Positions 3,894 to 62,046 of a DNA stretch of 64,000 bases are shown one piece after another. The notes under the pieces are model-generated. The model was not told the DNA's origin. It searched no databases and was given only the letters and a program-made list of their open reading frames with translations. This stretch comes from Eledone cirrhosa (lineage: Eukaryota): NCBI GenBank assembly GCA_964016885.1, contig OZ024742.1, forward strand, positions 34,782,001 through 34,846,000, written 5' to 3'. The stretch's first letter is position 1, and every line of letters begins with the position of its first letter. Made by a program: the position numbers and the translations under genes.

Positions 3894-4010
3894 TAGATAT
3901 ATATGAAAATGTGTGAGATCCTTGGTACAGTTAGGTATATTTGAAAAGGCAGGAAAAGAATGACTTCACTTGTAGTGTTAAAAAATTTATTATTTAATGT
4001 TATAATATAA

Positions 4011-4194
4011 TTGTTTCTACTTTAGGCACAAGGCCAGCAATTACCCAGTGCATTACTGGTACTTTGTTTTATCGACCCCGTAAGGATGAAAGGCAAAGTC
4101 AACCTCGGCGGGATTTGAACTCAGATCGTAAAGGGACGTAACTATGCTGGAAAGCATGGCGTCCGACCCTCTACTGATACTGCCAATCCACGCC
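4011..4194 (-). mobile_element. tRNA-derived SINE (Meta-domain-like core) with ~16-bp TSD
   Basis: B box GAGTTCAAATCCC and core CTTTGCCTTTCATCCTTACGGGGTCGATAAA on -. AATGTTATAATATAAT flanks both sides (3996, 4195). Confidence 0.85.
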
Positions 4195-4402
4195 AATGTT
4201 ATAATATAATATTATAATATTATGAGTTGGTAGATCCAGTAAGTTCTTTGTTAACTTCGGTGGAAAGAATTTTAGAGATTCCTGGTTAACTTGGGTTGGA
4301 GAACTTTCTCGCATTCGTCTGTCTGTGGCGATTGACAATCGCCACAGACCCGTTAAGGGTGAAAGCAGCGATTCTTTGCTTAAACTTTAATCTGTTATTT
4401 TA

Positions 4403-10046: not shown

Positions 10047-11614
10047 AAAAGGAGTGGTGCTTCTGTCAGAAGTTGTGACCTGCAGATAATATCAGCAATA
10101 AAAAGACCATTTAAAAGTCTCCATATTTCAATCTGATGATCTACTTTTTTCCTTTTTTATATTTAGAACTAAATCAAGTTAAATGGGGTTAAACAGAAAC
10201 TGAAGTTTATATTCGTGAATCGAAATATATATAGAAAATTATTTTACCTTTTAAACCTTTTTTCTCGTTTTATTTCAAATGCAGCCATATTTCAATGTTT
10301 GTATAGCTCTTCACAGTTGGTGGGTTGAGATCCTCACTAAAGTGCTTTGCAATATTCGATCTGGTCTTCTGCTCTCTGAGTTCAAATCCCATTGAGAACA
10401 ATTTTGCGTTTTGATATTTTGAGGTTGATAAATAAAGATGTAATCCAGTGGTTTGATCTAATCATCTTCCTACATTTTTTATCAAACTCCCCCCCCCCCT
10501 CTCTCTATCTATCTATCTATCTATGTATCGATCTATCTATCTTTCTTTCTCTCTTTCTGTCTCTTTCTTTTACTTTGGATGAAATCGGCTGTGTTCAAAC
10601 CTTCAGAGAATGGTCTTCATCGGCTTTAAATTATCACGAAAGGCTGTATGTTACGACAGGTCCAATTATGACTAAACCTGGAGAGAATAGTCCTTAGTTC
10701 TATGATTCAAAGTTTGTTTTAAAATGTATACATTTATCGAAAATGTTCCATCATAATTCTATGTACGAAAGTTTGTCAAAATATGCCCTAAACACCAACG
10801 TGGTAAAGAGAAAGATAGTTATAATGCTAAATTCCTCAAAATCCTTGATTATTTTCAAAATGATTTAGAAATTATTGGCAATGTATTTCATGAGAAATAT
10901 GGTAACTGAATAATCGAAGTGTTTATATTTATCTAAAAACCTTTCATCTTACTTTTATGTAGGAATATTGTAAGTTATGCTTCAAACATCAGCTTGGGTT
11001 GAGAAATTTAATTATATTACTACATTGCTCAAAATCATTGATTATTTTCAAAATGGTTTGCAAATCATAGGCAATGTCTTTTATTAGAAATATGGTAACG
11101 AAAGGGTTAAGTTTTGTTCCAGACATCAGTTTAATAATTAGAAAGTTAATTACATAATTAAATTGCTCAACATTCTTAATTATTTTATATACACATGGTT
11201 AGCCGTATTCTTCTCTTGGCTGTCCTCTTCCCTACCGAATATTTGAGAAACAACATATATTGAAACCACTATAAAATTATGTTATTGAAAGATAGCTCAG
11301 TATCATTGAGTTCTCCAAGCAAACGGACCAATGAAAACTGACACTTGAGGCTGAAATTATATTTCATTGTTATTAGATCTAATGATTTAATTGTTTATTT
11401 TTATTTTATCTCGAAATTGAATATCTTATTAAAACTAACGACTGTACAATTACACACAACATCATTACGTGTACTTTCAAATGAATGAACATAAGTAGGT
11501 TGTCTATTGGATCAGATCTGACCTGAGGCTAAACGACAACAACATACAATTAAGAAATACAGTCAATCAATAATGATGGTGTTAGTTTCAACATAAACAA
11601 AATTAAATAATAAC

Positions 11615-12225
11615 AATTTTTTCTACTTTTGTCACAAGGCCAGCAATTATCCCAGTGTATTACTGGTGATTTATTTTATCGACCTCGTAAGGATGAAAGG
11701 CAAAGTTAACCTCGGCGGGATTTGAACTGAGACCATAAAGGGCCATAACTCTTTGCTGCAAAGCATGGCGTCAGACCCTCTACCGATACTGCCATCCACC
11801 GCCTTTAAATAATACTTAAATAATAATAATAATAATCATTTCTAACATTAGCACAAGGCCGGCAATTTGGGGAAAGGAAAAAAGCGATTATAACAACCTC
11901 AGTACATAAATTTGATCTTTATTTACTTGACCCCGCTTGATCTCGGTAGAATTTTAACTGAAAACCTATAAAAATGTAGAATCAGTGAGGCTATTTAATA
12001 ATTGTTTCTACTTTTGGCGCAAGGCCAGAAATTATCCCAGTGCATTACTGGTACTTTATTTTATCGACCCCGTAAGGATGAAAGGTAAAGTTAACCTCGA
12101 CGGGATTTGAACTCAGACCGTAAAGGGACGTAACTATGCTGGAAAGCATGGCGTCCGACCCTCTTAATAATTGTTTCTACTTTTGGCACAAGGCCAGCAA
12201 TTACCCAATGCATTACTGGTACTTT
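11615..12225 (-). mobile_element. Cluster of tRNA-derived Meta-like SINE copies (~11615-11803, 11835-11970, 12001-12162, 12168-12225)
   Basis: Repeated GCACAAGGCCAGCAATT...TTTTATCGACCCCGTAAGGATGAAAGGCAAAG...GGATTTGAACT. Confidence 0.85.
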
Positions 12226-13273
12226 AATTAATGACATATATATGGTGTTTGGTATTTTTAAGTGTGGAATCCATGGAATGAAGAAAGGTAAATACAATAA
12301 AAGTGACGGGATGAATGTATCAAACGTAGAGAGTTCCGAGCGACTGACACAGATGATGGATATAAATATCTGGGGGTTGGGAAGCTGGTCATAGAAAAAC
12401 AGGTACTAATGAAAAACAAAACCAGGAGTGAATAACTGCTCTTAATAGTAGTATGGAGAGAAGATATATTAAATGAAGGGGGAAAAAAGTGAAGTCTTCA
12501 AAACTAAAAAAATATATATGTATATATAGATATGATTTAAAAAGTTTACACGGAACGTATTTCCAATATACTAGGTTCTCTGCCCTCTCACGGCTTATGT
12601 TTTTCATCCCACTGGATTTCCAAAATCAGCCTCCTCACCAAGCAAGCTTGGTGGAGTTGCCAGTTTAGTCGTCGGTGACCTGACTATGCACAGGATGTAC
12701 TGGGTTAGATGTTACCAGTAGCGTTGAAAAGCGACCTGACATTATATACATACATATATAAATATATACATACTTTCGTACGTACATTCATACATACATA
12801 AATGGAAGTTTATCGTTGGTTTACTGACTTCCTGGTCTAATAACTGATTGGTTGGCCTAACGGCGGTGTATATATGTGAAAGAATGGTTAATGATTAAAA
12901 ACGCTGGAAGGCTGAAATATATTTAGATATACAGCAAAAGTTAGAACAATATTACTTGATGATTAATAAATACTAGTTTCAACGGAAAACAGCACAACCC
13001 AAACCATGACGAATTTCACCTTTTCAGCTCATCAGCGATGATATAATTTGTAATCAGCTGATGAAGTATTTTGAAGGTATGGTTTGTGGGATCTGTTATA
13101 TTACTCGGCTCCTTATATTCAAGCAGAATAATGTAAATGGGATTTGAAGATACTGCAAATTAAAGGAACGATTATATAATTGGTAATGTAAATTGGTATG
13201 TAACCGAATCATTACCAATTTCTCTGCAAATTAATAACTATGTATATGCATATGTGTATATATATATATATAG

Positions 13274-18270: not shown

Positions 18271-18589
18271 TGATTTTCTAGATGGTTGGTCTAGTTATTT
18301 AGTTGATCTAGTTATTTATCTGGCTAGTTGATTGAAGAGTTCATTCGTTCTTTCACGAAGTACTTTATATCAATAATAACTCCCAAGTGGTTGACACAAT
18401 AAAATAGAGTGAGTTGTTGCTACAATAATTTATTTTCATTTATAAATTGAAGAAGTCTGTGTGATTATTTTGATAATTCTGAGAAGTATGACTTGTGGGC
18501 GGTGAAAAGGGATACGTAGAGACGACATCTGCAAGATAAATATATAGTTAAGTGATGGGATCTAATGTACTTAATGTAGTGATCCAAAT

Positions 18590-18966
18590 AATTGTTCCTA
18601 CTGTTGTCACGAGGCCAGCAATTATCCTAGTGCATTACTGGTACTTTATTTTATCGACCCCGTAAGGATGAAAGGCAAAGTTAACCTCGGCGAGATTTGA
18701 TCTCAGAACGTAAAGGGCCATAACTCTATACTTAAAGCATTGTGTCTAACGCTCTACTAATGCTGCCAATTCCAAATAATTGTTTCTACTTTTGGCACAA
18801 GGCCAGCAATTATCCAGTGTATTACTGGTACTTTATTTTATCGACCCCTTAAGGATGAAAGGCAAAGTTAACCTCGGCGGGATTTGAACTCAGAATGGCA
18901 AGGGCCGTAACTCTATGCGTCAAAGCATGGCGTCCGACCCTCTACCGATACTGCCAATCCACCGCC
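18590..18966 (-). mobile_element. Two tandem Meta-like SINE copies
   Basis: Copies ~18590-18770 and 18778-18966; CCAAATAAT recurs at the junctions. Confidence 0.85.
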
Positions 18967-20242
18967 AATTCCAAATAATAATGGGGGAATATGTGTGTGT
19001 TGCAATATATATTTTCATTTCTCAATTGAAATAGTCGATCAACTTAATCTGATTATTCTGAGAAGGAACAAAAGATATTTGCATGAAAAATATATAGTTG
19101 TGACGACACAATGTAGTAGTTACAAATAAATAAATAACTACTTTACATTACACCCATGATGCGGTGGATTTGGCATGACCCGATGATTAGGAAGTTTGAT
19201 TCACAATCCCGTGTTCTTGGGATTCGATACCAGTGTGGATTCTCGGGCAAGTATCTTTTATGAGGAGCTCCGGTTGACAATAGACTTGAGAGTGAAATCA
19301 GGTAAGCGGCAAGTGATTGGTAGTACAAAGTTCACCCCTGGACGTGACGCTTGTCTGTCACAAGGTGAATTCTCTGCTGCAGTCTCTGGAACCCATTTTT
19401 CCTGGACTGGAAATGTGAGATGAAATACATTGTACAAGAACACAGCATGTCGCCCGGTCCGGGAATCTAACTTACAACCTTACAGCCCTTAGCTCGATAG
19501 CCAATACCAGGCTACGAACCTGTAAACGATATAGAAATATTTAACGTCCATTATTAAAAGTAGTTAAGAAGGGGTGATTTCTATTGTCTAACCTAACTTC
19601 GTTATCCCAACCCCCCACCTTTAACAAACCTACCGACTCCCATTCCTACCTCGATTTCATCTCAATTCACACCCAATCGGCTATCTCCTACTCGTAATTC
19701 CCCCGTCTACATCGCTCCTCGAGACGAGACTCTAATCAAAAAGGACATTCTGTTTACGCAGTTAAAACCTGCCCTCAACAACAGGCAAACATTGTTCACC
19801 GGTAATTGGATAATACAGTAGCTACCTATCATCTGCGTATGAAGCAACACCCTCCAAACATTACCTATCTGCTCATGTCCGAATAAAGTTCCATTCTGCA
19901 AACCTCCAATCATGAGTAGGTTGTGAGTTCAATTCTCGGAACGGGTTATGTGTTGTTTCCTTGAGCAAGACACTTTATTTCAAGCTGCTCCAGTTTACTC
20001 AGCTTAGGAATGAGATGATAGGACTGGGATCCCTATCATTAAATCTCCCAAGACACCTCCAACGAAATATACCTTGGAGGAGGCCAGCTAAACCTGCATA
20101 GGTGTGAGCTGTCACACACAATCATGATTAGCACTTTCTAAGACGAAATATTTACATAAATAAGGTAATGGTGTCAAGCTTTGTTTTTGTTTTCACTCAT
20201 TGCATGTTGTCACTTTTTCAATCACTTTTAACTTTCTATATA

Positions 20243-21158: not shown

Positions 21159-21527
21159 TAATCAAGGGAAAGCATCTTTGAATCCGTAATTCCGTAATAT
21201 GTTTCTAGTGAGTTATTGTCTCATTGTCTTGTCCGGCAAAAGAAATAATTCAGCACGTGTTTGGAACCTGGGTTGAAGGAAAAATGGGTGTTGTACTTGT
21301 AATCTATCTATCTATCTATCTATCTTGATGGAGTAAGACACGCTTCACATCGGCTCCGCTATTCCATCGAGATTTACCCTTACTATTGTAAGTACCGGAT
21401 AAATTTTTCAGTGCAACACATTTGGAACACTAACCCCTGTTTTTTAGGGAAACATTTTTGCATTTACCCCCTTTTTAGGGGGTAAAATAAATATCTATTT
21501 TTGCCGAAAAATTTCTTTCTTGGCAGC

Positions 21528-23361
21528 ATGGCGGAAAAGATGGCAGACATGTCTGCCATTAGCTCTGCCACGCCCCCCAAGTCTGAAGAACAAAAAATAA
21601 TTACAACAAAATTAGACAATGAAACAAACAAAGAAAATGAAAAAACAAATGTTAAGGAAAATGAGCAAACAGAAAACAAACAAACAGAAAATAATACAAA
21701 TAACAACAGGGCAACTTTCGCCCAGAAAACAAAACAATCCATTACATACACACCAATTGACCTAACTGCCGCCAGAGAAAAACTGGCCGAAGCAAAGAAA
21801 CACATTGTTTTGGGGGAGAACGGAATGTTTTCCATTAACTCCCCCCCCCAGAATTCAAGAAAGCCAGAACAGAAAGCACAGTTCTCTACAGAACTATACT
21901 GAACCAGACAAGAAAGCCAGCACAGCCCAGCCAAATGGAAATAGAGTTAGTCCTAAAAGACTATATGAAGAATATTCTCTTCATACGAAAGGACCGACTC
22001 TATGGCAGCATTTCGGTCCTAACAAGAGACAAGGAAACGGCGGAGAAGCTTTCCCTAAGCCCACTCTCATCGACAACATATAGCTTCTATCCCTCCTACA
22101 TGGGTAGAAGAACACAGAGAGTAAAAGTAAAAACAATGCTGCCCACAATGGACTTCTGGTGGGCTATTGCTGGCTTCATAGATATGGGCGAAGACACAAT
22201 GCTGTCAATGGGGAAGGCAACTGGAGATGCGTTCCTGGGAATGGGCCTCGACATACTAGTCCAAATGAGGCCCGAAAGAATAGCACAAATCCCGGATCGC
22301 ATCTGGCTGGATGACCTTACCCCAATAGACATAATTGTAGAGGGGAGAAGACCAGCATGCTATTTATGCATGGAAAGGGGACACGTTAAGGCTAACTGCC
22401 CGAAACGTATCCCCCAAAAAGGACTATTGCCCACACCCACCACAAACAGTACACCAACACCACCCACCTCCAAAAATACACTAATACCACACACAGCAAA
22501 CAAAATACAGACACCACCAACCACAAACACAACACAAACATCACCACCACCAGCACCAAACACAAGCACGACACAAAAATCACCACCACCAACAACAACA
22601 CAAACACCACCATCACCAACCACAAGCACGACACAAACATTACCACCACCACCACAAAACCCATTCCAAACAAATAATAAAAAAAACAGTAACAAATCTA
22701 CCCCTCCCGCAAAAAAAAAACAACCACACAACACGTCCCTCCCACCTAGCGCTGAAGAGTTTCCCCCAACTTCTGAAGAAGAAGGAGGAGAAGCCTTCAG
22801 ACAAGTTAAAAGAAAAAAAAGAAAACACACACCCAGCACACCACAAATAACCCACACACAAACACCAACTCCAATCAAAAACACCCCACCCTCAACAAAC
22901 AAAAATAAATCTGCGCCTCCCCTCTCCGAAACATTGACAGCATCACAAAAAAAGACGTTGCAATACACATATATAAATAAAGAAAACAAAAAACTGGTTA
23001 AATTAATAAACAATAACCCTATGGTGCAGACCGAAGGGCCAAACTTTATCTCGACAGAGAACTTCACCCATTTAAAAATGATAAAGGTCCCTCTGGACCT
23101 TTATCGTTCCTTAAAAGAACAATTTAGACGGGACGTGAGCCCCCCCCCCCCTGTTTAAAACCGTTGAATCGCGTCCTCTTGAAAGATTTCCCCATAACCG
23201 CCCCTCTCCCTGACACAACTCCAAATACCCCAACCCCACCACACACGTGTACCCCCACACCACCACAAAACATCCCTCCACCCAACACACCTGACGCCAT
23301 GGAAATTACACAACCCAGAGAGGTAAGTGCTTTTCTTTCTTCACTTTCAACACCAAAATAG
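21528..23361 (+). pseudogene. Tx1 ORF1 (gag-like, CCHC knuckle, Pro/Thr-rich), frameshifted at two poly-C runs
   Basis: ATG at 21528; CYLCMERGHVKANC. Segments 21501-21902, 21935-23158 and 23164-23361 join when the C-runs at ~21841 and ~23140 take copy 2 lengths. Confidence 0.8.
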
Positions 23362-23366
23362 ATCAA

Positions 23367-26300
23367 TTAAGAGTTGGCTGTTTGAACGCGCGTGGCCTGG
23401 GCTCTGCTTGGAAGCAAGCAAAGCTACTAAGTGACCTCAGGTCACGAAGTATAGATGTGATGGTTGTTTGCGAGAGTCGAATCAGCAGCGTGCGACAGCT
23501 GGCTCCCGCCTTCGATGACTTTGAGATGCACGCATCTCTCTGTCAACCCGGAGGCGGGGGGGGGGGGGAGTTGCCGTACTGCTGGATAAACGTCTGGCTC
23601 TCGACGTACAGATTGTTCACTCGGACCCGGGGGGTCGAATACTGGTGCTGGACGTCGGAGGCGGTGAAGGCGGGGCTTTCAGACTGGTCGGTCTTTATGC
23701 CCCCTTCGGGGCTGAAAGAGCCGACTTCTTCCAGCGTCTGGAGACTTTTCTAGGAACGTCGCGTTCCCTGCTTTTAGTGGGGGACTGGAATGGAATCCTA
23801 GATGCGCGTTGGGACTATGCAGGGGCATGTCCCGATAGAGGGGGGTGTAGCAGCCTCAAGGGGTTACTCGATCGATTCGACCTGGTCGATAGATTTCGAC
23901 TAGATTGTCCAACTGCGCCAACCTGGACCTGGGCAAACCGCAGTGGACAATCTAGATCGTACCTAGATAGGTTTTTGGTTAGGAGTAAGGATAGGGACGT
24001 ATTTAGTTGTCCAGAATTGATCATGGTTGGCTATTCAGATCACAAATTAGTGACCTGCGTGGTCAACCTTGATAGAACGCATAGACAGGGTCCCGGTTAC
24101 TGGAAGATGAACTTGTCCTTGCCGGCAAAGAAAGATTACAGGAACCGGATTAGTAGCTTAGTTAAGATGCGGTTGACGGGAGCGATTGTCAACAGTAGGT
24201 GGTGGGTATCTCTAAAGAGAGAGATTAGAGTAAGTTCGATAGGTTACAGTAAGGAACTAGCGGCGAATAGAAATAGGAAGGAAAGGGAGTTAACAGATAA
24301 ACTAGAAGAGGCGATTAGGAGCGGAGACGTAGCCAGAGTGTTAGCGGCTAGAACGGCGTTGAGCCAGTTCTTTGACGCGAAGCACGAAGGCTGCGTTGTC
24401 CGAAGTAAAATACGTGCTTTAGGAAACGAGGGGACCAAAGCTGTTAGCTGGGCCCGCGTGACAGAAGCCAAGAGTGGGATTAAATCCACCATTCGGTCTT
24501 TGCGAGACCAGGATGGACGGGTGATCCTTGAACCTGAGCGGATGTGCGAAGCCTTTCAAAGGCACTTTGCTCGACTGTTCGGAGGGGGCGGGGGGCCGGA
24601 CGGGGATGTGGACTTCGGTCCATTCCTCGACGGTCTACCGCGTCTTTCGAGCGGCGAAGCGGAGTGCTGCGAAAGGCCAATCACAGCCACTGAAATCGGG
24701 GAAGCTCTCAGCCAATGCAGCAGACGCAAATCTCCGGGTCTCGATGGTCTACCATACGAACTTTATTTAGCTATGCCGGTCTTGTTCTCCGAACTCCTCG
24801 AGGCTGTCTATTGCAACTGGCAACAGAACGGGAGAATTCCCTGTTCTGTGACCAAGGGCGTGGTCACGCTAGTGAGGAAGGACGAGAGCAAGGGGGACGA
24901 CTTAAGTAACTTTAGGCCCATAACTCTGCTGAATGCAGAGTTACAGATTTTGGCCAAGGTGTTGGCGAAGAGGTTGGCGCTTGTGGTGGGTGGTTTGGTG
25001 GGAGACGCGCAGACATGCGCTATCCCGTCCAGGTCCATTCACGACAACCTCCACCTCATGCGATACATCATAGAGAGGGTTGGCAACGAACCCGGCTTTG
25101 GTGGGGCCCTGATCAACTTGGATCAATCTAAGGCGTTCGATAGGGTCGACCATGGTTACCTGGAAGCGGTGCTAGCGGCGGCGGGCTTCGGACCCGTTTT
25201 CAGGGGCTGGATTTCTGCCATGCACAGTGGCAACATCTGCTCTAGGATTAAAGTAAACGGCTACCTCTCGGAGCCGTTTCAAATCACCCGGTCCATCAGA
25301 CAGGGGTGCCCCCTCTCCTCCCTTCTGTACGTATTGACTCTCGAGCCACTGCTGCGGAAGTTGGAGTTGCTGCGGGGCATACCCCTGGAACCGGGATTGC
25401 ACAAAGCGGTCTCGGCCTATGCCGACGACGTAACAGTAATGGTGGCGGACGCCTCGGAAATCGGGGCGATCGCCACCCTACGGGAGGAATACGAAAGGCT
25501 GACGGGGGCTAGGCTGAACCGGGACAAGTCAGTCGGTTTGCAACTCGGAACGTGGAGGGGCAAACCGATGCCGTTAGACGGTGTCGTCGGGCGGTGGACG
25601 GAGGGCCCGGTGAAGCTGCTCGGGGGCTGGTTCGGACCGGACCTCCAGGTGGAGAAGAATTGGGGCGAGGTGACGAGCAGGGTGTTTGCGCTGACCCAGA
25701 AGTGGGCCAAGTGCAAACTATCACTGAAAGGTCGGGCGGAGGTGACGAACGCTTACATAGCGTCCGTCATCTGCTACCGCCTGACCGTCGTGCCTTGTCC
25801 CAAGGAAAAGATCACCATCATGGAACGCATGCTCTTCCAGTTCCTCTGGAAGAAGCGGCCTCCCATGGTGAGGAGATCCATCTGCTGCCAGCACCCTTCG
25901 AAAGGAGGGCTGGGTATGCCGTGGCTGTTGATGCGTAGGCACGCATTGAGGCTACGGCATCTACAGGTATTCCTCACCGGTCAGCCGGTGTGGGCCCCGT
26001 TTGTGAGGCGAGCCTTCCCACAGCTCGTCTCGCTCACCGAGCTGCAATCCTGGGTGAAGCAAAGACCGAGAAAACTGGGCAACTGGCACACCGAGTGTGC
26101 CCAGGCGCTCACGGCTATCTGGCAAGCGGACCCAACTGTCGGTGGAGAATCCACCTCGACATTCTATAGAGGGCTGGTGGCTAGCAGGGGCGACGACACC
26201 CTTGGAGAGTCGCTAGGCATGGAGAAGGACGAACTGGCCAGCCTGTTCGGTAGAACTTTCGGCCCGGGACCCATGGACAACTTCCAGAGGTCCCTAGCCT

Positions 26301-26800
26301 GGCAGTGTTACCGGGGGGCTCTGCCCGTTCGAGAAAAGCTCTACAGACACGGGCGCCCGGGCAGGGATCCAGCGAAAAAGATCTGTCCCAGATGCGTGCG
26401 CGACTTGGAAACCGTTGCGCATGCACTGGTACACTGCCCGGGCGTTGCCGATCTGTGGGGCTACGTCGAACGACTGCTGTCGCGTGTGGCGCCGATTCGA
26501 TTAACCGCCGAGTCTGTGGTGAACATCAAGCCGCCTCCTCCCTTCAGAAATGAAGCAGAGGCGGTCTTTCTGTGCCTAATAGCCATGATGAAAGAGGTTG
26601 TGTGGTGGACGCGCCTGAAAGGTCTGAGGTCGGGTGACTTTCTCTCCGGCCATCACCTGGTTTACTTCTTCCGATACCACTTCGGAAGAAGGATCAGGAT
26701 GGAGAGAGAAGTGCTTGGCCCCAGACAGTTTTATGAAAGGTGGGTGAAAGAAGCGAGAATGGCTCGTGTAAATGGGCCTTCTCTCTACATTGTTCTGTAG
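23367..26800 (+). CDS. Tx1 ORF2: APE endonuclease + reverse transcriptase + C-terminal Zn motif (one frameshift at poly-G 23556-23568)
   Basis: GCLNARG, VCES, GDWN, YLDRF, SDH; KSPGLDG, FRPITLLN, DQSKAFDRV, QGCPLS, YADD; CPRC..ETVAHALVHC. 1051 aa open from 23645. Confidence 0.92.
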
Positions 26801-27059
26801 GTGAAGAAGTGAAGAGGAAAGGGGGAGCGCCTCCTCTCTGGGCTTCCCCTGCGAAAAGGGTTGCACACTTTTCGGGGGTATGTGCAATCCCGAACACGCC
26901 CCCTCCCTTTTGAGGACTTTTTATTATTATATTATTATTGTTATTCCTTTTTCTTTACTCGATTTATGTAAACTCCCCCACTGTGTATTTGTCCCCTTCT
27001 TTTGTGCCCTCGTGGCAAATAAATAGAAATTTATCTATCTATCTATCTATCTATCTATC

Positions 27060-30000
27060 TTGATAGAGTAAGACACGCTTCGCATCGGCTCCGCTATTCC
27101 ATCGGGATTTACCCTTACTATTGTAAGTACCGGATAAATTTTTTAGTGCCACACATTTGGAACACTAACCCCTGTTATTTAGGGAAACATTTTTGCATTT
27201 ACCCCCTTTTTAGGGGGTAAAATAAATATCTATTTTTGCCGAAAAATTTCTTTCTTGGCAGCATGGCGGAAAAGATGGCAGACATGTCTGCCATTAGCTC
27301 TGCCACGCCCCCCAAGTCTGAAGAACAAAAAATAATTACAACAAAATTAGACAATGAAACAAACAAAGAAAATGAAAAAACAAATGTTAAGGAAAATGAG
27401 CAAACAGAAAACAAACAAACAGAAAATAATACAAATAACAACAGGGCAACTTTCGCCCAGAAAACAAAACAATCCATTACATACACACCAATTGACCTAA
27501 CTGCAGCCAGAGACAAACTGGCCGAAGCAAAGAAACACATTGTTTTGGGGGAGAACGGAATGTTTTCCATTAACTCCCCCCCAGAATTCAAGAAAGCCAG
27601 AGCAGAAAACACAGTTCTCTATAGAACTATACTGAACCAGACAAGAAAGCCAGCACAGCCCAGCCAAATGGAAATAGAGTTAGTCCTAAAAGACTATATG
27701 AAGAATATTCTCTTCATACGAAAGGACCGACTCTATGGCAGCATTTCGGTCCTAACATGAGACAAGGAAACGGCGGAGAAGCTTTCCCTAAGCCCACTCT
27801 CATCGACAACATATAGCTTCTATCCCTCCTACATGGGTAGAAGAACACAGAGAGTAAAAGTAAAAACAATGTTGCCCACAATGGACTTCTGGTGGGCTAT
27901 TGCTGGCTTCATTGATATGGGCGAAGACACAATGCTGTCAATGGGGAAGGCAACTGGAGATGCGTTCCTGGGAATGGGCCTCGACATACTAGTCCAAATG
28001 AGGCCCGAAAGAATAGCACAAATCCCGGATCGCATCTGGCTGGATGACCTTACCCCAATAGACATAATTGTACAGGGGAGAAGACCAGCATGCTATTTAT
28101 GCATGGAAAGGGGACACGTTAAGGCTAACTGCCCGAAACGTATCCCCCAAAAAGGACTATTGCCCACACCCACCACAAACAGTACACCAACACCACCCAC
28201 CTCCAAAAATACACTAATACCACACACAGCAAACAAAATACAGACACCACCAACCACAAACACAACACAAACATCACCACCACCAGCACCAAACACAAGC
28301 ACAACACAAAAATCACCACCACCAACAACAACACAAACACCACCATCACCAACCACAAGCACGACACAAACATTACCACCACCACCACAAAACCCATTCC
28401 AAACAAATAATAAAAAAAACAGTAACAAATCTACCCCTCCCGCAAAAAAAAAACAACCACACAACACGTCCCTCCCACCTAGCGCTGAAGAGTTTCCCCC
28501 AACTTCTGAAGAAGAAGGAGGAGAAGCCTTCAGACAAGTTAAAAGAAAAAAAAGAAAACACACACCCAGCACACCACAAATAACCCACACACAAACACCA
28601 ACTCCAATCAAAAACACCCCACCCTCAACAAACAAAAATAAATCTGCGCCTCCCCTCTCCGAAACATTGACAGCATCACAAAAAAAGACGTTGCAATACA
28701 CATATATAAATAAAGAAAACAAAAAACTGGTTAAATTAATAAACAATAACCCTATGGTGCAGACCGAAGGGCCAAACTTTATCTCAACATAGAACTTCAC
28801 CCATTTAAAAATGATAAAGGTCCCTCTGGACCTTTATCGTTCCTTAAAAGAACAATTTAGACGGGACGTGAGCCCCCCCTGTTTAAAACCGTTGAATCGC
28901 GTCCTCTTGAAAGATTTCCCCATAACCGCCCCTCTCCCTGACACAACTCCAAATACCCCAACCCCACCACACACGTGTACCCCCACACCACCACAAAACA
29001 TCCCTCCACCCAACACACCTGATGCCATGGAAATTACGCAACCCGGAGAGGTAAGTGCTTTTCTTTCTTCACTTTCAACACCAAAATAGATCAATTGAGA
29101 GTTGGCTGTTTGAACGCGCGTGGCCTGGGCTCAGCTTGGAAGCAAGCAAAGCTTCTAAGTGACCTCAGGTCACAAAGTATAGATGTGATGGTTGTTTGCG
29201 AGAGTCGGATCAGCAGCGTGAGACAGCTGGCGCCCGCCTTCGATGACTTTGAGATGCACGCATCTCTCTGTCAACCCGGAGGCGGGGGGGGAGTTGCCGT
29301 ACTGCTGGATAAACGTCTGACTCTCGACGTACAGATTGTTCACTCGGACCCGGGGGGTCGATTACTGGTGCTGGACGTCGGAGGCGGTGAAGGCGGGGCT
29401 TTCAGACTGGTCGGTCTTTATGCTCCCTTCGGGGCGGAAAGAGCCGACTTCTTCCAGCGTCTGGAGACTTTTCTAGGAACGTCGCGTTCCCTGCTTTTAG
29501 TGGGGGACTGGAATGGAATCCTAGATGCGCGTTGGGACTATGCAGGGGCATGTCCCGATAGAGGGGGGTGTAGCAGCCTCAAGGGGTTACTCGATCGATT
29601 CGACCTGGTCGATAGATTTCGACTAGATTGTCCAACTGCGCCAACCTGGACCTGGGCAAACCGCAGTGGACAATCTAGATCGTACCTAGATAGGTTTTTG
29701 GTTAGGAGTAAGGATAGGGACGTATTTAGTTGTCCAGAACTGATCATGGTTGGCTATTCAGATCACAATTAGTGATCTGCGTGGTCAACCTTGATAGAAC
29801 GCATAGACAGGGTCCCGGTTACTGGAAGATGAACTTGTCCTTACCGACAAAGAAAGATTACAGAAACCGGATTAGTAGCTTAGTTAAGATGCGGTTGACG
29901 GGAGCGATTGTCAACAGTAGGTGGTGGATATCTCTAAAGAGAGAGATTAGAGTAAGTTCGATAGGTTACAGTAAGGAACTAGCAGCGAATAGAAATAGGA

Positions 30001-32753
30001 GGGAATGGGAGTTAACAGATAAACTAGAAGAGGCGATTAGGAGCGGAGACGTAGCCAGAGTGTTAGCGACGAGAACGGCATTGAGCCAGTTCTTTGACGC
30101 GAAGCACGAAGGCTGCGTTGTCCGAAGTAAAATACGTGCTTTAGGAAACAAGGGGACCAAAGCTGTTAGCTGGGCCCGCGTGACAGAAGCCAAGAGTGGG
30201 ATTAAATCCACCATTCGGTCTTTGCGAGACCAGGATGGACGGGTGATCCTTGAACCTGAGCGAATGTGCGAGACCTTTCAAAGGCACTTTGCTCGACTGT
30301 TCGGAGGTGGCGGGGGGCCGGACGGGGATGTGGACTTCGGTCCATACCACGACGGTCTACCGCGTCTTTCGAGCGGCGAAGCGGAGTGCTGCGAAAGGCC
30401 AATCACAGCCACTGAAATCGGGGAAACGCTCAGCCAATGCAGCAGACGCAAATCCCCGGGTCTCGATGGTCTACCATACGAACTTTATTTAGCTATGCCG
30501 GTCTTGTTCTCCGAACTCCTCGAGGCTGTCTATTGCAACTGGCAACAGAACGGGAGAATTCCCTGTTCTGTGACCAAGGGCGTGGTCACGCTAGTGAGGA
30601 AGGACGAGAGCAAGGGGGACGACTTAAGTAACTTTAGGCCCATAACTCTGCTGAATGCAGAGTTACAGATTTTGGCCAAGGTGTTGGCGAAGAGGTTGGC
30701 GCTTGTGGTGGGTGGTTTGGTGGGAGACGCGCAGACATGCGCTATCCCGTCCAGGTCCATTCACGACAACCTCCACCTCATGCGATACATCATAGAGAGG
30801 GTTGGCTACGAACCCGGCTTTGGTGGGGCCCTGATCAACTTGGATCAATCTAAGGCGTTCGATAGGGTCGACCATGGTTACCTGGATGCGGTGCTAGCGG
30901 CGGCGGGCTTCGGACCCGTTTTCAGGGGCTGGATTTCTGCCATGCACAGTGGCAACATCTACTCTAGGATTAAAGTAAACGGCTACCTCTCGGAGCCGTT
31001 TCAAATCACCCGATCCATCAGACAGGGGTGCCCCCTCTCCTCCCTTCTGTACGTATTGACTCTCGAGCCACTGCTGCGGAAGTTGGAGATGCTGCGGGGC
31101 ATACCCCTGGAACCGGGATTGCACAAAGCGGTCTCGGCCTATGCCGACGACGTAACAGTAATGGTGGCGGACGCCTCGGATATCGGGGCGATCGCCACCC
31201 TACTGGAGGAATACGAAAGGCTGACGGGGGCTAAGCTGAACCAGGACAAGTCAGTCGGTTTGCAACTCGGAACGTGGAGGGGCAAACCGATGCCGTTAGA
31301 CGGTGTCGTCGGGCGGTGGACGGAGGGCCCGGTGAAGCTGCTCGGGGTCTGGTTCGGACCGGACCTCCAGGTGGAGAAGAATTGGGGCGAGGTGACGAGC
31401 AGGGTGTTTGCGCTGACCCAGAAGTGGGCCAAGTGCAAACTATCACTGAAAGGTCGGGCGGAGGTGACGAACGCTTACATAGCGTCCGTCATCTACTACC
31501 GCCTGACCGTCGTGCCTTGCCCCAATGAAAAGCTCACCATCATGGAACGCATGCTCTTCCAGTTCCTCTGGAAGAAGCGGCCTCCCATGGTGAGGAGATC
31601 CATCTGCTGCCAGCACCCTTCGAAAGGAGGGCTGGGTATGCCGTGGCTATTGATGCGTAGGCACGCATTGAGGCTACGGCATCTACAGGTATTCCTCAAC
31701 GGTCAGCCGGTGTGGGCCCCGTTTGTGAGGCGAGCCTTCCCACAGCTCGTCTCGCTCACGGAACTGCAATCCTGGGTGAAGCAAAGACCGAGAAAACTGG
31801 GCAACTGGCACACAGAGTGTGCCCAGGCACCCACGGCTATCTGGCAAGCGGACCCGACTGTCAGTGGAGAATCCACCTCGACATTCTATAGAGGGTTGGT
31901 GGCTAGCAGGGGCGACGACACCCTTGGAGAGTCGCTAGGCATGGAGGAGGACGAACTGGCCATCCTGTTCGGTAGAACTTTCGGCCCGGGACCCATGGAC
32001 AACTTCCAGAGGTCCCTAGCCTGGCAGTGTTACCGGGGGGCTCTGCCCGTTCGAGAAAAGCTCTACAGACACGGGCGCCCGGGCAGGGATCCCGCGAAAA
32101 AGATCTGCCCCAGATGCGTGCGCGACGAGGAAACCGTTGCGCATGCACTGGTACACTTCCCGGGCGTTGCCGATCTGTGAGGCTACGTCGAACGACTGCT
32201 GTCGCGTGTGGCGCCGATTCGATTAACCGCCGAGTCTGTGGTGAACATCAAGCCGCCTCCTCCCTTCAGAAATGAAGCAGAGGCGGTCTTTCTGTGCGTA
32301 ATAGCCATGATGAAAGAGGTTGTGTGGTGGACGCGCCTGAAAGGTCTGAGGTCGGGTGACTTTCTCTCCGTCCATCACCTGGTTTACTTCTTCCGATACC
32401 ACTTCGGAAGAAAAATCAGGATGGAGAGAGAAGTGCTTGGTCCCAGACAGTTTTATGAAAGGTGGGTGAAAGAAGCGAGAATGGCCCGTGTAAATGGGCC
32501 TTCTCTCTACATTGTTCTGTAGGTGAAGAAGTGAAGAGGAAAGGGGGAGCGCCTCCTCTCTGGGCTTTCCCCGCGAAAAGAGTTGCACACTTTTCGGGGG
32601 TATGTGCAATCCCCAACACGCCCCCTCCCTTTTGAGGACATTTTATTGTTATATTATTATTGTTATTCCTTTTTTCTTTACTCGATTTATGTAAACTCCC
32701 CCACTGTGTAAATGTCCCCTTCTTTTGTGCCCTCGTGGCAAATAAATAGAAAT

Positions 32754-32755
<2 letters not shown>
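27060..32755 (+). mobile_element. Full-length Tx1-clade element, copy 2 (very similar to copy 1, with nonsense mutations)
   Basis: Collinear with copy 1. Stops at 27758, 28790 and 32178, 1-nt deletion near 29768. Flanked by (TATC)n. Confidence 0.93.
29095..32522 (+). pseudogene. Tx1 ORF2 copy 2, disrupted
   Basis: ORFs 29095-29772, 29730-32180 and 32208-32522 match copy 1 ORF2. Confidence 0.9.
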
Positions 32756-32790
<35 letters not shown>

Positions 32791-35162
32791 GATAGAGGAC
32801 GTGCTGAGCCAATGCGGCAAACGCAAATCCCCGGGTCTCGATGGTCTTCCTTACGAATTATATCTAGCTATGCCGGACTTGTTCCCCGATCTCCTCGAGG
32901 CGGTCTACTGCAACTGGCAACAGAACGGGAGAATTCCCTGTACTGTGACCAAGGGCGTAGTCACGCTAGTGAGGAAGGACGAGAACAAGGGGGACGAAAT
33001 AAGTAACTTCAGGCCCATAACACTGCTAAATACAGAGTTACAGATTTTGGCCAAGGTGCTAGCAAAGAGGTTGGCGCTTGTCGTGGGCAACCTGGTGGGA
33101 GATGCGCAGACATGCGCTATCCCGTCCAGGTCCATCCATGACAACCTCCACCTCATGCGATACATCATAGAGAGGGTTGGGAACGAACCCGGCTTTGGTG
33201 GGGCTCTGATCAACTTGGATCAATCTAAGGCGTTCGATAGGGTCGACCATGGTTACCTGGATGCGGTGCTAGCGGCGGAAGGCTTCGGACCCGTTTTCAG
33301 GGGCTGGATCACTGCTATGCACAGCAGCCGCATCTGCTCTAGGGTCAAGGTGAACGGCTACCTCTCGGAGCCGTTCAAAATCGCGCGGTCCATCCGACAA
33401 GGGTGCCCTCTCCTCCTCCCTTCTGTATGTGTTGACTCTCGAGCCACTACTGCGGAAGTTGGAATTGTTGCAGGGCATCCCTTTGGAACCGGGATTGCGG
33501 AAAGCGGTGTCGGCCTACGCCGATGACGTGACAGTAATGGTGTCGACGGCCTCCGAAATCGAGGCGGTCGGCACCTTACTGGAGGAGTACGAAAAGTTCA
33601 CAGGGGCTAAGCTGAACCGGGACAAGTCGATCGGTTTGCAACTCGGCACGTGGAGGGGCAGACCGATGCCCTCCGATGGCGTCGTCGGACGCTGGACGGA
33701 GGGCCCGGTGAAGTTGCTCGGGGTCTGGTTCGGACCGGACCTCCAGGTGGAGAAAAACTGGGCGGAGGTTACGAACAGGGTGTTTGCACTGACCCAGAAG
33801 TGGGCCAGTTGCAAACTATCCCTGAAAGGTCGGGCGGAGGTGGCGAACACCTACATAGCGTCCGTCATCTACTACCGCCTGACCGTAGTGCCCTGCCCAA
33901 GGGAAACCCTCACCAAGATGGAGCGCGCGCTCTTCCAATTCCTTTGGAAGAGGCGGGCTCCTATGGTGAGGAGATCCATCTGCTGTCAACACCCTTCGAA
34001 AGGAGGGCTGGGGATGCCGTGGCTAATGATGCGTAAACACGCATTAAGGCTACGGCACCTCTACGTATTCCTCACCGGACAACCGGTGTGGGCCTCGTTT
34101 GTGAGACGAACCTTTCCCAGACTCGTCTCACTCACCGAGCTGCAATCCTGGGTCAAGCAAAGACCGAGAAAACTGGGCGCCTGGCACACTGAGTGTGCCC
34201 AGGCGCTCACCGCCCTCTGGCAGGCGGATCCGGTTATCAGTGGAGACTCCACCGCAACATTCTATAGAGGGCTGGTACGCAGCAGGTGCGACGACGCCCT
34301 CGGAGAAGCCCTAGACATGGAGGAGGACGAACTGGCCAGCCTGTTCGGTAGGACATTCAGCCCGGGACCTATGGACAACTTCCAGAAGTGCCTGGCCTGG
34401 CAGTGCTACCGAGGGGCTTTACCCGTTCGAGAAAGGCTCTACAGACACGGGCGCCCGGGTAGGGACCCCGCCAAAAAGATCTGTCCCAGATGCGTGTGCG
34501 ACGAGGAAACCGTTGCACACGCATTGGTACACTGCTCGGGCGTAGCCGATCTGTGGGGCTATGTCGAACAACTGCTGTCAAGGGTGGGACCGATCCGGTT
34601 GACCACCGAGTCTATTGTAATGATCAAGCCGCCTCCCCCCTTCAAAGATGAAGCAGAGGCGGTGTTTCTGTGCGTAATAGCCATGGCGAAAGAGGTTGTA
34701 TGGTGGACGCGTCTGAAAGGACTGAGGTCAGGCACCTTTCTCTCTGGCCAACAACTGGTCCGTTTCTTCCGATATCATTTCGGAAGAAGGATCAGGATGG
34801 AGAGAGAGGTGCTGCACCCCAGCCGTTTCTATGAAAGAATGGTGAAAGTGGCGAGAATGGCCCGTGTGAATGGGCCTTCACTCTACATCAGACTATAGGT
34901 GAGGAAGATGAAAGACCAAGGGAGCACCCCTTCTCTGTGCTCCTGAGGAGAAGGGTTGCACACTTTTTTCGGGGGTGTGTGCGACCCCCCAAGGCGCCTC
35001 CTCTCTATTGAGGATTTTGTTAAAAATTTTATTTTTTGTTATATCTTATTTTATTTTTATATTTTGTTATTGCCTCCTCCTTATTGAGGACGCCTTTTTG
35101 TGTAAACTCCCCCCTTTGTACTTGTCCCACTTTTGATGCCCTAGTGGCAAATAAAAGAAACA
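32791..35162 (+). mobile_element. 5'-truncated Tx1-clade element, copy 3 (diverged subfamily)
   Basis: Starts at the beginning of the RT. ORFs 32801-33526 and 33429-34898 (frameshift ~33415). Different 3'UTR with similar terminus GTGGCAAATAAAAGAAA; (TATC)n on both sides. Confidence 0.92.
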
Positions 35163-35235
<73 letters not shown>

Positions 35236-35350
35236 GTCTTTCTGTCTATCTAATAAAGACATCTATCTGTCTGTCAGTCAGTCTATAGATTTATCTATCT
35301 ATCTATCGATTTATCTATCTATCTATTTATCAATCTATTTACCTGTCTAT
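35162..35350. repeat. (TATC)n microsatellite
   Basis: Seen directly. Confidence 0.95.
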
Positions 35351-40896: not shown

Positions 40897-40949
40897 ATAA
40901 ATATATATATATATATATAATAATAAATATATATATATATATATATAAA

Positions 40950-41352
<403 letters not shown>

Positions 41353-43044: not shown

Positions 43045-43195
43045 CGATGTCTCGTATAGAGTTACGGTCCTTGCCATTCTGAGTTCAAATCCCACCGAGG
43101 TTAACTTTGCCTTTCATCCTTACGGGATCGATAAAATAAAGTACCAGTAATGCACTGAGTAATTGCTGGCCTTGTGCCAAAAGTAGAAACAATTA
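43045..43195 (+). mobile_element. Meta-like SINE (partial)
   Basis: B box, core and tail motifs. Confidence 0.8.
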
Positions 43196-43595
43196 TCTAA
43201 TAATAGCTATATGTTGATTTGTACTGCATGTTTGATTGACCTGTTTAGTTGCGATACAGACCCGAACTAGTTCGGATCCAGCTGTCGAAACGGCCGGAGC
43301 TCAGCCGTCGGGGTCCTGACTCTTTTCTTATATATATATATATATATAATTTAGGTTTGTTGGTTCACCACTGGATAGAACTGGTCATTTCGTTTGGTCA
43401 ACCTCGATGTAATATTATGGAGAGCACTCGTCTTCGTTTGTGTAGTTGGTGGTGCGAGTACGGAGTTAAAGGCTTGAGTTAAATACTTAAGGACGGCCGA
43501 CCGAGGTAAAAGCTGCTAAATAGTCGGTCGTCCTCTTGTCTTTGATTTTCAGCCTCCATGGATTTTATCTGTTATATTCCTTTGTTATATTTTGA

Positions 43596-54897: not shown

Positions 54898-56127
54898 GAA
54901 AAGTGTGTGGGAAGAGAGTTCAAAGGGTGTGTAGGGGAGTGGTGGAGAGACATATAGCAAAAGGGGCGTGAGAGGAAACGGTGCAAATGAAATTAAAAAT
55001 AAAGGCATGATCAAAATAAAAGTAATAACAATACGCATAGTGAATCTATTTAATGGTTTTAGACCAACCGAAATCCGTCCTAATAAACGAACTTTGAAGT
55101 GGCAGAGCATTCTACAAACACACGTACAGACATGTAGATATACACACATACAGATATACACATGTAATAATAATAATAAAATAATAATAATGAAATTGTG
55201 TACAGTGCTCAGGTGCACTACAATTCATCAAAGGTGCATGTATAGTACATAGAATAATGTACAAATATCAGGAAAATGAAAAATGAATGTGTATGAGTCA
55301 TGATATACATGTGTGCGTGTGTATGTAGACATTCTTTTTTTTTCTCATTCTTTCTTCCTTTCGTTCTTATATATGTAGTATCTCTCTCTCTATCTAGCTC
55401 ACCCCTCTTCCCCCTCTCTCACTCATGGCGTCTCCCCTTCTAACTCTCTCCCCTTTCTCTCTCTCTCCTTCCTCTTCATTTTCTGTCTCCCACTCTCACA
55501 CCCTCCCCCTCTCTCCCTCCCTCTACCATCTCTTTCCTTCCCACCATCTGCCTCACACCCCTACTTCTTTCATTTCCTTTCACTTCCTTCACCCCCCTCT
55601 ATTTCTATGTTTTTCATTTACCAGATTTATCTCTGTCCGCTCATTACTTCTATAGTACTTTTACCTAAAACAACACCTGCACACCTGCAGACCTACATTA
55701 AGACAGGTAATAGTGAAAAAAAGAATCAGTTAATAGGTAAGCAAATACCAACGGTTGGTTGCCTTCTTTATCAGCTACATTCTTTAACAAACAAAATCTT
55801 CATTATCATCTTTTCGAGTTTTAATGCCGACGAGGTAATCTTTGATTTCCGCCTTTCCGGCTTTGTTGTTGCTGTTGTTGTTGTTATTGTTGTTCAACCC
55901 TAGGCTAGCCACGAACGGGTACAGTCTACAGCGGTGCCTGAACTGTGTGCCGGAACACATAATTTGGTGCACTGCCAAAGAGTAAAACTATATTTCAAAA
56001 TGTGGAAAAAAATACAAATTGACAGACCTGCCAAACTCTAAAAACCGAAACGGAGAGTGCCATGAAAAAAGGGCCCCAAAACGGGGAGAAATGAGGCAAA
56101 ATACGGAGATTTTACATAAGGTTTTCT

Positions 56128-56333
56128 TATATAGGCACAAGGCCAGCAATTTTAGGGAGGGGAGAGTCGATTAAATCGATCCCAGTGCTTATTGGTACTT
56201 TATTTTATCGATCCCGTAAGAATGAAAGGCAAAGCTAACCTCGGCAAGATTTAAACGCAGAACGTAAAGGGATGTAACTCTATGCTGTGAAGCATGGCGT
56301 CCGACGTTCTACCGATACTGCCAATCCACCACC
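56128..56333 (-). mobile_element. Meta-like SINE
   Basis: Same family motifs. Confidence 0.85.
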
Positions 56334-56908
56334 TTTTTGGTGTGGTGTGGCTGTAATATGATCTTAGTCTAACTAAATGTGTGTTTATTACAGACAAAGT
56401 ATATTGTATATGGCTTCTTATACTCCTAAATACTGAATCAGGTTGTATTAGTTTTACCGTTAATTAGAAAATAATAATTATATTTTTTGTGTATGTGAAA
56501 GAAGGTGAGGGGTTAGCGGTAACAAGTCTAAGATACAGGTAAGGCTGTTAAGGAGTTTGATTACGTGAGGGAAGTCTGCAGAGCTGAAATGCTAACAACA
56601 AATTATGTCTGAATACTAATTGTGAGCAATAGTTAGTGAAGCATGACAGAAGTATTTTGGTGTAAGATGAGTTCATTATGCAATTGGTATGAACAATAAA
56701 GAGAGGGGGAGAGAGAGAGAGTGGCGGAAGACAGAGACCTGATATAAAGACTCACACACACAGTTACGCATACACATAAGCACACACGCATATATACACA
56801 TATGCATACACACATACGCACACACATATATACAAATGTAGTCTATATGTATATATATATATACACACATACAAGTACATACATACACACACAAACACAC
56901 ACACACAA

Positions 56909-58426: not shown

Positions 58427-59557
<1,131 letters not shown>

Positions 59558-61419: not shown

Positions 61420-61420
<1 letters not shown>
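59558..61420 (+). mobile_element. Retrozyme-like array: 310-bp HHR-bearing unit, ~1.4 inverted copies (59558-59999) + ~4.6 direct copies (59998-61420), in (TA)n
   Basis: Exact 310-nt period (GTAGTCCTGATGA at 60011, 60321, 60631, 60941, 61251). Reverse HHR at 59716-59758. No listed ORF spans a unit. Confidence 0.9.
60011..60053 (+). ncRNA. Type I hammerhead ribozyme (repeats every 310 nt, five + copies)
   Basis: Stem I GTAGTC/GATTAC, CTGATGA, stem II TTCT-AACA-AGAA, GAAAC-GC-GTA (palindrome ACGCGT). Cleavage predicted after 60047. Confidence 0.9.

Positions 61421-62046
<626 letters not shown>

What the first reader, a model, noticed from the sequence alone, without database searches (positions are those of the whole stretch)
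21302..35232. (TATC)n-targeting Tx1 LINEs stacked three-deep in one microsatellite
Seen: three co-oriented elements from two subfamilies, one 5'-truncated, separated and flanked only by (TATC)n, including upstream of copy 1; no poly(A) tail. Known: Tx1-clade families are often target-specific (Kibi (TC)n, Koshi (TTC)n, Keno U2 snRNA). Inference: an APE endonuclease specific for (TATC)/(GATA)n, with independent serial insertions. I do not recall this target being described.
Basis: partly seen in the sequence, partly recalled or inferred. Interest (0 to 1): 0.7.

Follow-up and report, generated by a model that had tools for sequence, protein, structure and literature searches.

The report
GATA-repeat-targeting, self-stacking LINE retrotransposons
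These are three copies, most likely separate insertions, of a young jumping-gene family that sits inside TATC (GATA) microsatellites at hundreds of places in this animal genome and piles up head-to-tail there, likely because its own nuclease cuts that repeat; repeat-seeking relatives are known, but I found no report of this target.

Summary
Confirmed. Two full-length LINEs (21326-27031, 27061-32754; 98% alike) and one 5'-truncated copy of another subfamily (32791-35162; 85%) lie head-to-tail, joined and flanked only by (TATC)n, without poly(A). Copies 1 and 2 are closer to many dispersed copies than to each other, so they likely inserted separately; at least 46 of 69 copies abut another family member. 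A sister family (67% ORF2 identity) does the same in (ATT)n. Likely mechanism: endonuclease nick in TATC with short duplications (9-13 bp, seen in 3 copies), plus repeat units probably carried on the RNA's 5' end, so each insertion renews the target. Nuclease specificity is untested, no empty site was seen, and Tx1 membership is likely but not shown by phylogeny. It is a new target for a known strategy; the scan noted this family before on other DNA of this genome.

The parts
21302..21325 (+). (ATCT)6 tract at the 5' junction of copy 1
21326..27031 (+). Copy 1: full-length LINE, young subfamily A (5706 bp)
   Evidence: head and tail match dispersed copies at 98.6-100%
21528..23361 (+). Copy 1 ORF1 (gag-like, one CCHC zinc knuckle, Thr/Pro-rich repeats); broken by frameshifts at C runs near 21850 and 23140
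   Evidence: (zf-CCHC E 0.013, below the curated cut-off)
23358..26800 (+). Copy 1 ORF2 (APE endonuclease, RT, C-terminal CCHC); one frameshift at a G run near 23560; begins at ATA where sister subfamilies have ATG
27032..27060 (+). (TATC)7T spacer between copies 1 and 2
27061..32754 (+). Copy 2: full-length LINE, subfamily A (5694 bp); ORF1 with in-frame stops, ORF2 with a frameshift near 29766 and a stop near 32180
32755..32790 (+). (TATC)9 spacer between copies 2 and 3
32791..35162 (+). Copy 3: 5'-truncated LINE of subfamily B (2372 bp), starts just upstream of the RT core; frameshift near 33400
35163..35350 (+). (TATC)18 perfect, then degenerate TATC/TCTG microsatellite: the probable original target
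   Evidence: 'original' is inference
35250..35261 (+). Possible 12-nt remnant of a family 3' end (AATAAA motif inside the tract); speculative
   Evidence: against the family 3' ends listed

Best explanation
The array is three copies, likely inserted separately, of an L1-superfamily (probably Tx1-clade) LINE lineage that sits in (TATC)n in one fixed orientation and register, likely because its APE endonuclease nicks the GATA strand and primes reverse transcription there. Shown: location in TATC at both ends, fixed orientation and register, several subfamilies, no poly(A), frequent stacking. Inferred steps: (1) ORF2p nicks the bottom (GATA) strand opposite the first T of a TATC unit. (2) Reverse transcription starts right behind AATAAA+7-8 nt, probably helped by read-through UAUC pairing with the nicked strand, so no poly(A) is copied. 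(3) The top strand is cut about 9-13 nt downstream, giving a short duplication that is usually hidden in the repeat. (4) The transcript probably begins inside the upstream repeat, so the cDNA end pairs with the top strand; this would give the invariant TATCT|TGATAG junction, the high share of full-length copies and a few added TATC units. (5) Each insertion leaves a fresh TATC tract at both ends, so later copies of any subfamily land beside earlier ones.
For: 528 of 560 exact heads are preceded by TCTATCT+TGATA genome-wide, controls 0. 69 full-length copies from 76 fetched stretches: 68 end their 5' flank in TATCT, 63 in at least 9 nt of repeat; 67 begin their 3' flank with TATCT. 140 of 147 family 3' ends have TATC within about 14 nt of AATAAA, 0 of 147 have a run of 8 A. 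Older copies picked by an ORF2-end query: 14 of 25 truncated copies have at least 8 nt of repeat within 30 nt upstream (17 of 25 TATCT), and 8 of 8 full-length ones with four different heads follow TATCT; background 0.15-0.39%. The 3' flank follows local sequence, not a fixed tail: TACC in L134, TATT in L077, (TA)n in L107, L109, L114. Duplications of non-repeat bases: 9 nt (L063), 12 nt plus 5 extra (L086), 13 nt plus 8 extra (L134). RNA-borne 5' units: 5' runs are 13-30 nt in 51 of 69 vs 28 of 69 for 3' runs (Fisher p 1.3e-4); L148 lies in a minisatellite whose upstream units have two TATC but has five at its 5' junction. Copies 1 and 2 differ by 1.75% substitutions; 37 of 61 dispersed copies are closer to copy 1 and 34 of 61 closer to copy 2. 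Stacking: 46 of 69, a lower bound. APE and RT motifs are all present in a naturally open frame (L133). An ATT-flanked sister family forms a separate branch (SH-aLRT 100 for each) with ATT at 20 of 20 5' ends. Precedent that the endonuclease decides the target: Tx1L-EN (PMC1950540 passages; PMC4494074 passage).
Against: No empty site was seen, so how much repeat pre-existed is inferred. 11 of 25 older truncated copies lack an 8-mer at the 5' junction and 8 of 25 lack even TATCT; of three non-full-length subfamily A copies, two (L067, L084) have no TATC at the 5' junction. These may be later rearrangements or off-target insertions. A duplication is visible in only 3 of 18 copies with a short (at most 11 nt) 3' run; in 14 of those 18 the 5' side is pure repeat of 13 nt or more, which needs flap trimming or a very short duplication. 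The hairpin loop that contributes to target choice in L1-EN hardly differs between the TATC and ATT families. The asymmetry of the 5' and 3' runs could also come from a preference for the left edge of tracts, or from later slippage. Samples are top-scoring hits, not random draws.
Confidence: 0.72

Rival explanations
1. RNA-led targeting: the endonuclease is only loosely specific (TAT-like steps) and the choice of repeat is made by pairing of UAUC repeats at both RNA ends with the DNA; the element largely writes its own microsatellite.
For: 5' runs have a floor in both families (TATC; ATT: 18-60 nt in 20 of 20, while 5 of 30 3' runs are 6 nt or less). Extra units beyond the duplication in L086, L134 and L148. 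Insertions next to (TA)n, (TC)n and (TCTG)n with only one TATC on the 3' side. Near-identical hairpin loops in the two families. RNA-target pairing aids priming in SART1Bm and R1Bm (PMC7265360 passage).
Against: Truncated copies have no 5' leader yet 14 of 25 start beside the repeat. 3' flanks that begin TACC, TATT or TATA argue against an obligatory copied tail. 17 substitutions in the endonuclease domain separate all 8 aligned TATC rows from the 3 ATT rows, so protein differences exist. Related endonucleases are sequence-specific in vitro.
Confidence: 0.18
2. (TATC)n is only a 3' tail (and a fixed part of the head); the element inserts at random and the array is a chance cluster or a hot spot.
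For: A share of older truncated copies have unique 5' flanks (11 of 25); long runs are commoner on the 3' side (at least 45 nt: 18 vs 3 of 69).
Against: Truncated copies broken at many different points start beside TATC far above the 0.15-0.39% background; degenerate microsatellite continues on both sides of many copies; at least 46 of 69 copies abut another member precisely at a TATC spacer.
Confidence: 0.04
3. Copies 1 and 2 arose by local tandem duplication, a dimeric transcript or an assembly error, not by separate insertions.
For: 98% identity and head-to-tail order; breaks at homopolymer runs could be sequencing errors.
Against: 1.75% substitutions between them, with 34-37 of 61 dispersed copies closer; tandem neighbours at two other loci differ by 125 and 257 substitutions; copy 3 is another subfamily; mixed-subfamily stacks are common.
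Confidence: 0.04
4. Passive accumulation: random insertion, with survival only in microsatellite-rich neutral regions.
For: Proposed for Waldo-A/B in Drosophila (PMC3812793 passage); the window is rich in simple repeats.
Against: Junctions are exact to the base, in one orientation and register, in copies as little as 0.3-1% apart; the commonest local repeat, (TA)n, is not the usual flank; the sister family picks ATT instead.
Confidence: 0.02

Closest known systems
Kibi (TC)n and Koshi (TTC)n of teleosts; crocodilian Tx1 families on (TTCC)n/(TTTC)n (PMC4494074, passages and section 15; PMC3812793, passages)
   Same: APE-type LINEs described as inserted specifically or preferentially into a pyrimidine-strand microsatellite.
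   Different: Sequence relationship to Kibi/Koshi could not be tested.
Keno (U2 snRNA) and 5S rRNA-inserted Tx1-type elements (PMC4494074, PMC4640811 passages; the name Mutsu for the 5S type is recalled)
   Same: Unnamed metagenome elements inserted in U2 (L167, L171) and 5S (L172) are among the best distant relatives: L167 39% over the RT region, the top score beyond the unnamed 48-75% group. The U2 sequence behind their A-tail begins GTATCT, sharing TATCT with this family's 3' junction.
   Different: They end in an A-rich or poly(A) tail and target an RNA gene; my quick tree does not join them with this family. The shared 5-mer may be chance.
Human LINE-1 ORF2p (PDB 8UW3 and others)
   Same: Best solved relative over EN+RT (E 1e-49, vs 3e-22 for R2); catalytic EN residues align.
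   Different: L1 has a short TTTT/AA preference and a poly(A) tail; its ORF1 is coiled-coil/RRM type (PMC5203782 passage), whereas ORF1 here has a CCHC knuckle.
Waldo (ACAY)n, Mino (AC)n, Dong (TAA)n, Togen (TG)n, SART1/TRAS1 (TTAGG)n (PMC3812793, PMC4640811, PMC7265360, passages)
   Same: Simple-repeat targeting by non-LTR elements; RNA-target pairing at priming in SART1Bm/R1Bm.
   Different: Other clades and other repeats. The ATT sister here shares Dong's repeat type but is L1-like in protein.

Membership tests
L1 superfamily (APE-type non-LTR retrotransposon) | N-terminal APE endonuclease with catalytic motifs | tested here: met
   Exo_endo_phos E 6e-8; motifs aligned to L1-EN
L1 superfamily (APE-type non-LTR retrotransposon) | Non-LTR RT closest to L1, with C-terminal cysteine-rich domain | tested here: met
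   RVT_1 E 7e-22; zf-RVT E 7e-5, below its cut-off; L1 ORF2p E 1e-49 vs R2 3e-22
L1 superfamily (APE-type non-LTR retrotransposon) | Two ORFs, no LTRs, variable 5' truncation, target-site duplication | tested here: met
   truncations; duplications visible in 3 copies
Tx1 clade | RT phylogeny within named Tx1 elements | tested here: inconclusive
   With U2- and 5S-inserted elements as markers the similarity rank fits, but the quick trees leave deep nodes open
Tx1 clade | Type I ORF1 with gag-like CCHC knuckle (plus RRM) | tested here: inconclusive
   CX2CX4HX4C is in the sequence; Pfam 16 bits vs cut-off 20.8; no RRM hit; feature as described in PMC5203782 passages
Tx1 clade | Preference for a repetitive target in more than 20% of flanks (criterion in PMC4494074) | tested here: met
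   528 of 560; 68 of 69; 14 of 25
Kibi/Koshi families | Target (TC)n or (TTC)n | tested here: not met
   Junctions are in TATC; (TC)n occurs only beyond a TATC run
Kibi/Koshi families | Sequence descent from Kibi/Koshi | not testable with these tools
   no Repbase or named sequences on hand
Endonuclease-specified site-specific LINE | Purified EN nicks the target specifically | not testable with these tools
   needs a bench assay

The most novel reading that the evidence does not exclude
A LINE that programs and manufactures its own target: repeat units carried at both RNA ends, not the nuclease, choose the microsatellite, so the lineage switched between (TATC)n and (ATT)n by changing RNA repeats while keeping almost the same endonuclease loop, and it seeds and lengthens GATA microsatellites genome-wide in a self-reinforcing cycle.
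Probability: 0.15. Interest if true: 0.8.

Novelty: new variant of a known kind. Interest (0 to 1): 0.5.

Why it matters
It adds (TATC)n/(GATA)n to the known microsatellite targets of APE-type LINEs, in a very young, high-copy family with naturally open frames. The review passage read here calls the mechanism of microsatellite targeting by such elements not well understood (PMC3812793). A TATC family and an ATT family that are 67% identical in ORF2, both young and in one genome, make the question of nuclease versus RNA pairing directly testable by domain swaps. It also warns that GATA-repeat markers in this animal often sit beside 5.7-kb insertions, and that stacks of near-identical copies can inflate or collapse in assemblies.

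Tried and rejected
Empty-site search: laying public contigs on a truncated copy with short flanking tracts (L100, 4 runs) gave no joint across the element among those shown; uninformative. The window's own array could not be examined this way, so its empty allele and insertion order remain open. No RNA holder was listed; this is no evidence on expression. A 5' ribozyme to explain the precise head: no Rfam family reached a meaningful score (best E 0.17); the leader plus 5' UTR folds better than shuffles (z -3.9), which identifies nothing. A query with copy 3's last 263 nt found nothing (probably because very common words are skipped) and was replaced by an ORF2-end query. Named Tx1 references: none; the Atlas gave no answer. 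The careful tree did not finish; quick trees only; three rows under 230 aa (copy 3, L258, L259) were dropped. Ten metagenome relatives showed no TATC flank; most contigs end near the ORF. The supplement of PMC4494074 could not be read and its Fig. 3 target labels are not held; a (GATA)n family could be listed there or in Repbase. Rejected: tail-only, tandem duplication, passive accumulation (see rivals).
Full report
Observation. The array is as described. Copy 1 (21326-27031) and copy 2 (27061-32754) are full-length and 98.0% identical; copy 3 (32791-35162) is 85% identical to both and lacks its first 3.4 kb. Tracts of 6, 7, 9 and 18 perfect units flank and separate them, and the last runs on as degenerate repeat to about 35350. 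Longer relatives show that copy 3 is cut exactly at the repeat. ORF2 has APE, RT and a C-terminal cysteine motif; ORF1 has a weak CCHC knuckle. All three copies carry frameshifts or stops, but 6 of 71 full-length copies have an open ORF2, 12 an open ORF1 and 2 both.

Is the repeat a target or a tail? A head query gave 659 candidates and a tail query 1691, 40 scored each. All 30 head loci returned, one being copy 1, end their 5' flank in TATCT; 29 of 30 tail loci begin their 3' flank with TATC. Genome-wide, an exact 23-nt head pattern occurs 560 times and 528 of these are preceded by TCTATCT+TGATA; reversed controls gave 0. I fetched 76 stretches around the hits; 69 held a full-length copy with both flanks (dropped: L067, L084, L088 not full-length; L098, L140, L154, L160 not captured by the script). 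Of the 69, 68 have TATCT at the 5' junction, 63 at least 9 nt, and 67 begin TATCT at the 3' junction. Across all own-genome loci then held, 140 of 147 family 3' ends had TATC within about 14 nt of AATAAA and none had 8 A in a row. A fixed head could itself contain TATC, so the harder test is truncated copies. Among older copies found with an ORF2-end query (34 of the 40 hits examined, one being copy 3), 25 others were truncated: 14 have at least 8 nt of repeat within 30 nt upstream, 17 have TATCT, 8 have neither; 8 were full-length with four different heads, all following TATCT, 6 of them an 8-mer. Background is 0.15-0.39% of 30-nt windows. The 3' flank follows the local DNA, starting TACC, TATT or (TA)n in five cases. 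So the repeat is a target, though specificity is imperfect or eroded in older copies.

Independent insertions. Copies 1 and 2 differ by 1.75% substitutions; 37 of 61 dispersed copies are closer to copy 1 and 34 of 61 closer to copy 2. Neighbours in two other stacks differ by 125 and 257 substitutions. Of 69 copies, 34 have a family 3' end just upstream and 22 a family piece just downstream, 46 either; the script missed some, so this is a floor. Stacks mix subfamilies, of which at least six distinct heads were seen. The order of the three insertions in this window is not determined.

Mechanism. Shown: fixed orientation and register. Inferred: a bottom-strand nick at a TATC unit. Three copies in imperfect repeats show duplications of 9, 12 and 13 nt, the last two followed by 5 and 8 extra repeat bases before the head. 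That is only 3 of 18 copies with a short 3' run; in 14 of the 18 the 5' side is pure repeat of 13 nt or more. 5' runs are narrowly spread (13-30 nt in 51 of 69) and 3' runs broadly (28 of 69; 45 nt or more in 18 vs 3). L148 sits in a minisatellite whose upstream units have two TATC but has five at its 5' junction, though one downstream unit has seven. The simplest reading is that the RNA starts inside the upstream repeat and its cDNA end pairs with the cut top strand. This would also explain why 35 of 38 subfamily A copies chosen by their 3' end reach the head. A bias for the left edge of tracts, or later slippage, could give part of the same pattern. No empty site was obtained.

Sister family. 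Earlier notes of the scan mentioned an ATT-seeking sister; I tested it. A distant homologue as query pulled 30 loci with ORF2 66-71% identical to this family. In all 30 the 3' flank starts in the ATT register (runs of 2-60 nt, 25 of them 21 nt or more), and 20 of 20 fetched heads follow 18-60 nt of ATT. TATC rows (14) and ATT rows (3) form separate branches, each SH-aLRT 100 in a quick tree. Their endonuclease domains are about 58-59% identical; the hairpin loop studied in L1-EN (PMC1950540, passages) is nearly the same, while 17 other substitutions separate all 8 aligned TATC rows from the 3 ATT rows. This keeps RNA-led targeting alive as a rival.

Classification. L1 superfamily membership is met. 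Tx1 is likely: animal host, CCHC-type ORF1, target specificity, and the best distant relatives include elements inserted in U2 snRNA and 5S rRNA genes, as Keno-type Tx1 elements are. But no named Tx1 sequence was available and deep nodes were unresolved. It is not Kibi or Koshi by target.

Literature. PMC4494074 (passages and section 15; supplement unavailable, figure labels not held) lists (TC)n, (TTC)n, (TTCC)n and (TTTC)n and has no occurrence of GATA or TATC. PMC3812793 (passages) lists ACAY, AC, TC, TTC and TAA. PMC4640811 (passages) adds (TG)n. PMC13282606 (first third of the text and passages) counts 13 recently active L1-Tx1 families in Octopus vulgaris and never uses the word target. 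PMC7265360 (abstract and passages), PMC1950540 and PMC5203782 (passages) were used for mechanism and ORF1 types. Searches listed no paper whose title or the passages I read describe a (TATC)n/(GATA)n-targeting LINE; most listed papers were seen only as listings. Kojima and Fujiwara 2004 and Repbase could not be read, so 'not described' is provisional.

Verdict. Real, well supported, and a new variant of a known strategy: a new microsatellite target, with a natural sister pair that makes the targeting mechanism testable. Eight earlier notes of this scan describe the same family at other places of this genome; they are not independent evidence. Interest 0.5.

Noticed in passing
window 23358-23360 and 64 of 69 subfamily A copies: ORF2 of subfamily A has ATA, overlapping the ORF1 stop, where 13 of 13 copies of other subfamilies have ATG in a good context; the first in-frame Met lies after the first endonuclease motif. 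This suggests non-AUG initiation or frameshifting (AUG-independent ORF2 translation in human L1 is recalled).
   Followed up: partly
window 23323-23361 and equivalent places in L248-L266: A splice-donor-like GT(A/G)(A/G)GT followed by a pyrimidine tract sits 25-60 nt before the ORF2 start in most subfamilies; another GTAAG lies in the first 100 nt of most heads, and subfamily A has an acceptor-like stretch right before the ORF1 ATG. Spliced RNAs are possible.
   Followed up: no
window 21326, 27061, 32791; L248, L265, L266: The head GATAG is the reverse complement of the target; copy 3's break point also falls on GATAGAG, making a CTATC|GATAG palindrome, and L248 has a GATAGAG-like insert at its truncation. 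Unexplained.
   Followed up: partly
L167:4757-4885, L171:5850-5977: U2-inserted (Keno-type) relatives are followed by GTATCT, sharing TATCT with this family's 3' junction; possibly an ancestral nick preference, possibly chance.
   Followed up: partly
L031, L078, window 35250-35261: Very short family fragments inside TATC tracts: a 25-nt 3' end (L031), a 13-nt head joined to a few bases (L078), and a possible 12-nt 3' remnant in the window.
   Followed up: no
window 59557-61426: A young fold-back-like element inside (TA)n: 4.6 perfect tandem copies of a 310-bp unit preceded by an inverted 443-bp arm of the same unit, 99.8-100% identical.
   Followed up: no
G000:C2:33306407-33317975, C2:38738431-38750657, C3:228521600-228546400, C3:339671300-339690000: Further stacks of three or more copies at about 5.7-kb spacing.
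   Followed up: partly
L100, runs X4, X6, X7: Contigs of three other organism labels hold this family's ORF2 end and 3' UTR at 85% or more, so the lineage is not confined to one species.
   Followed up: no
window 4000-4200, 11600-12230, 18583-18980, 40930-41170, 43050-43210, 56120-56335: Many copies of a short interspersed repeat of about 190 bp; one such repeat with an ATT tail is the upstream flank of an ATT-family copy (L308) and of a TATC copy (L165).
   Followed up: no
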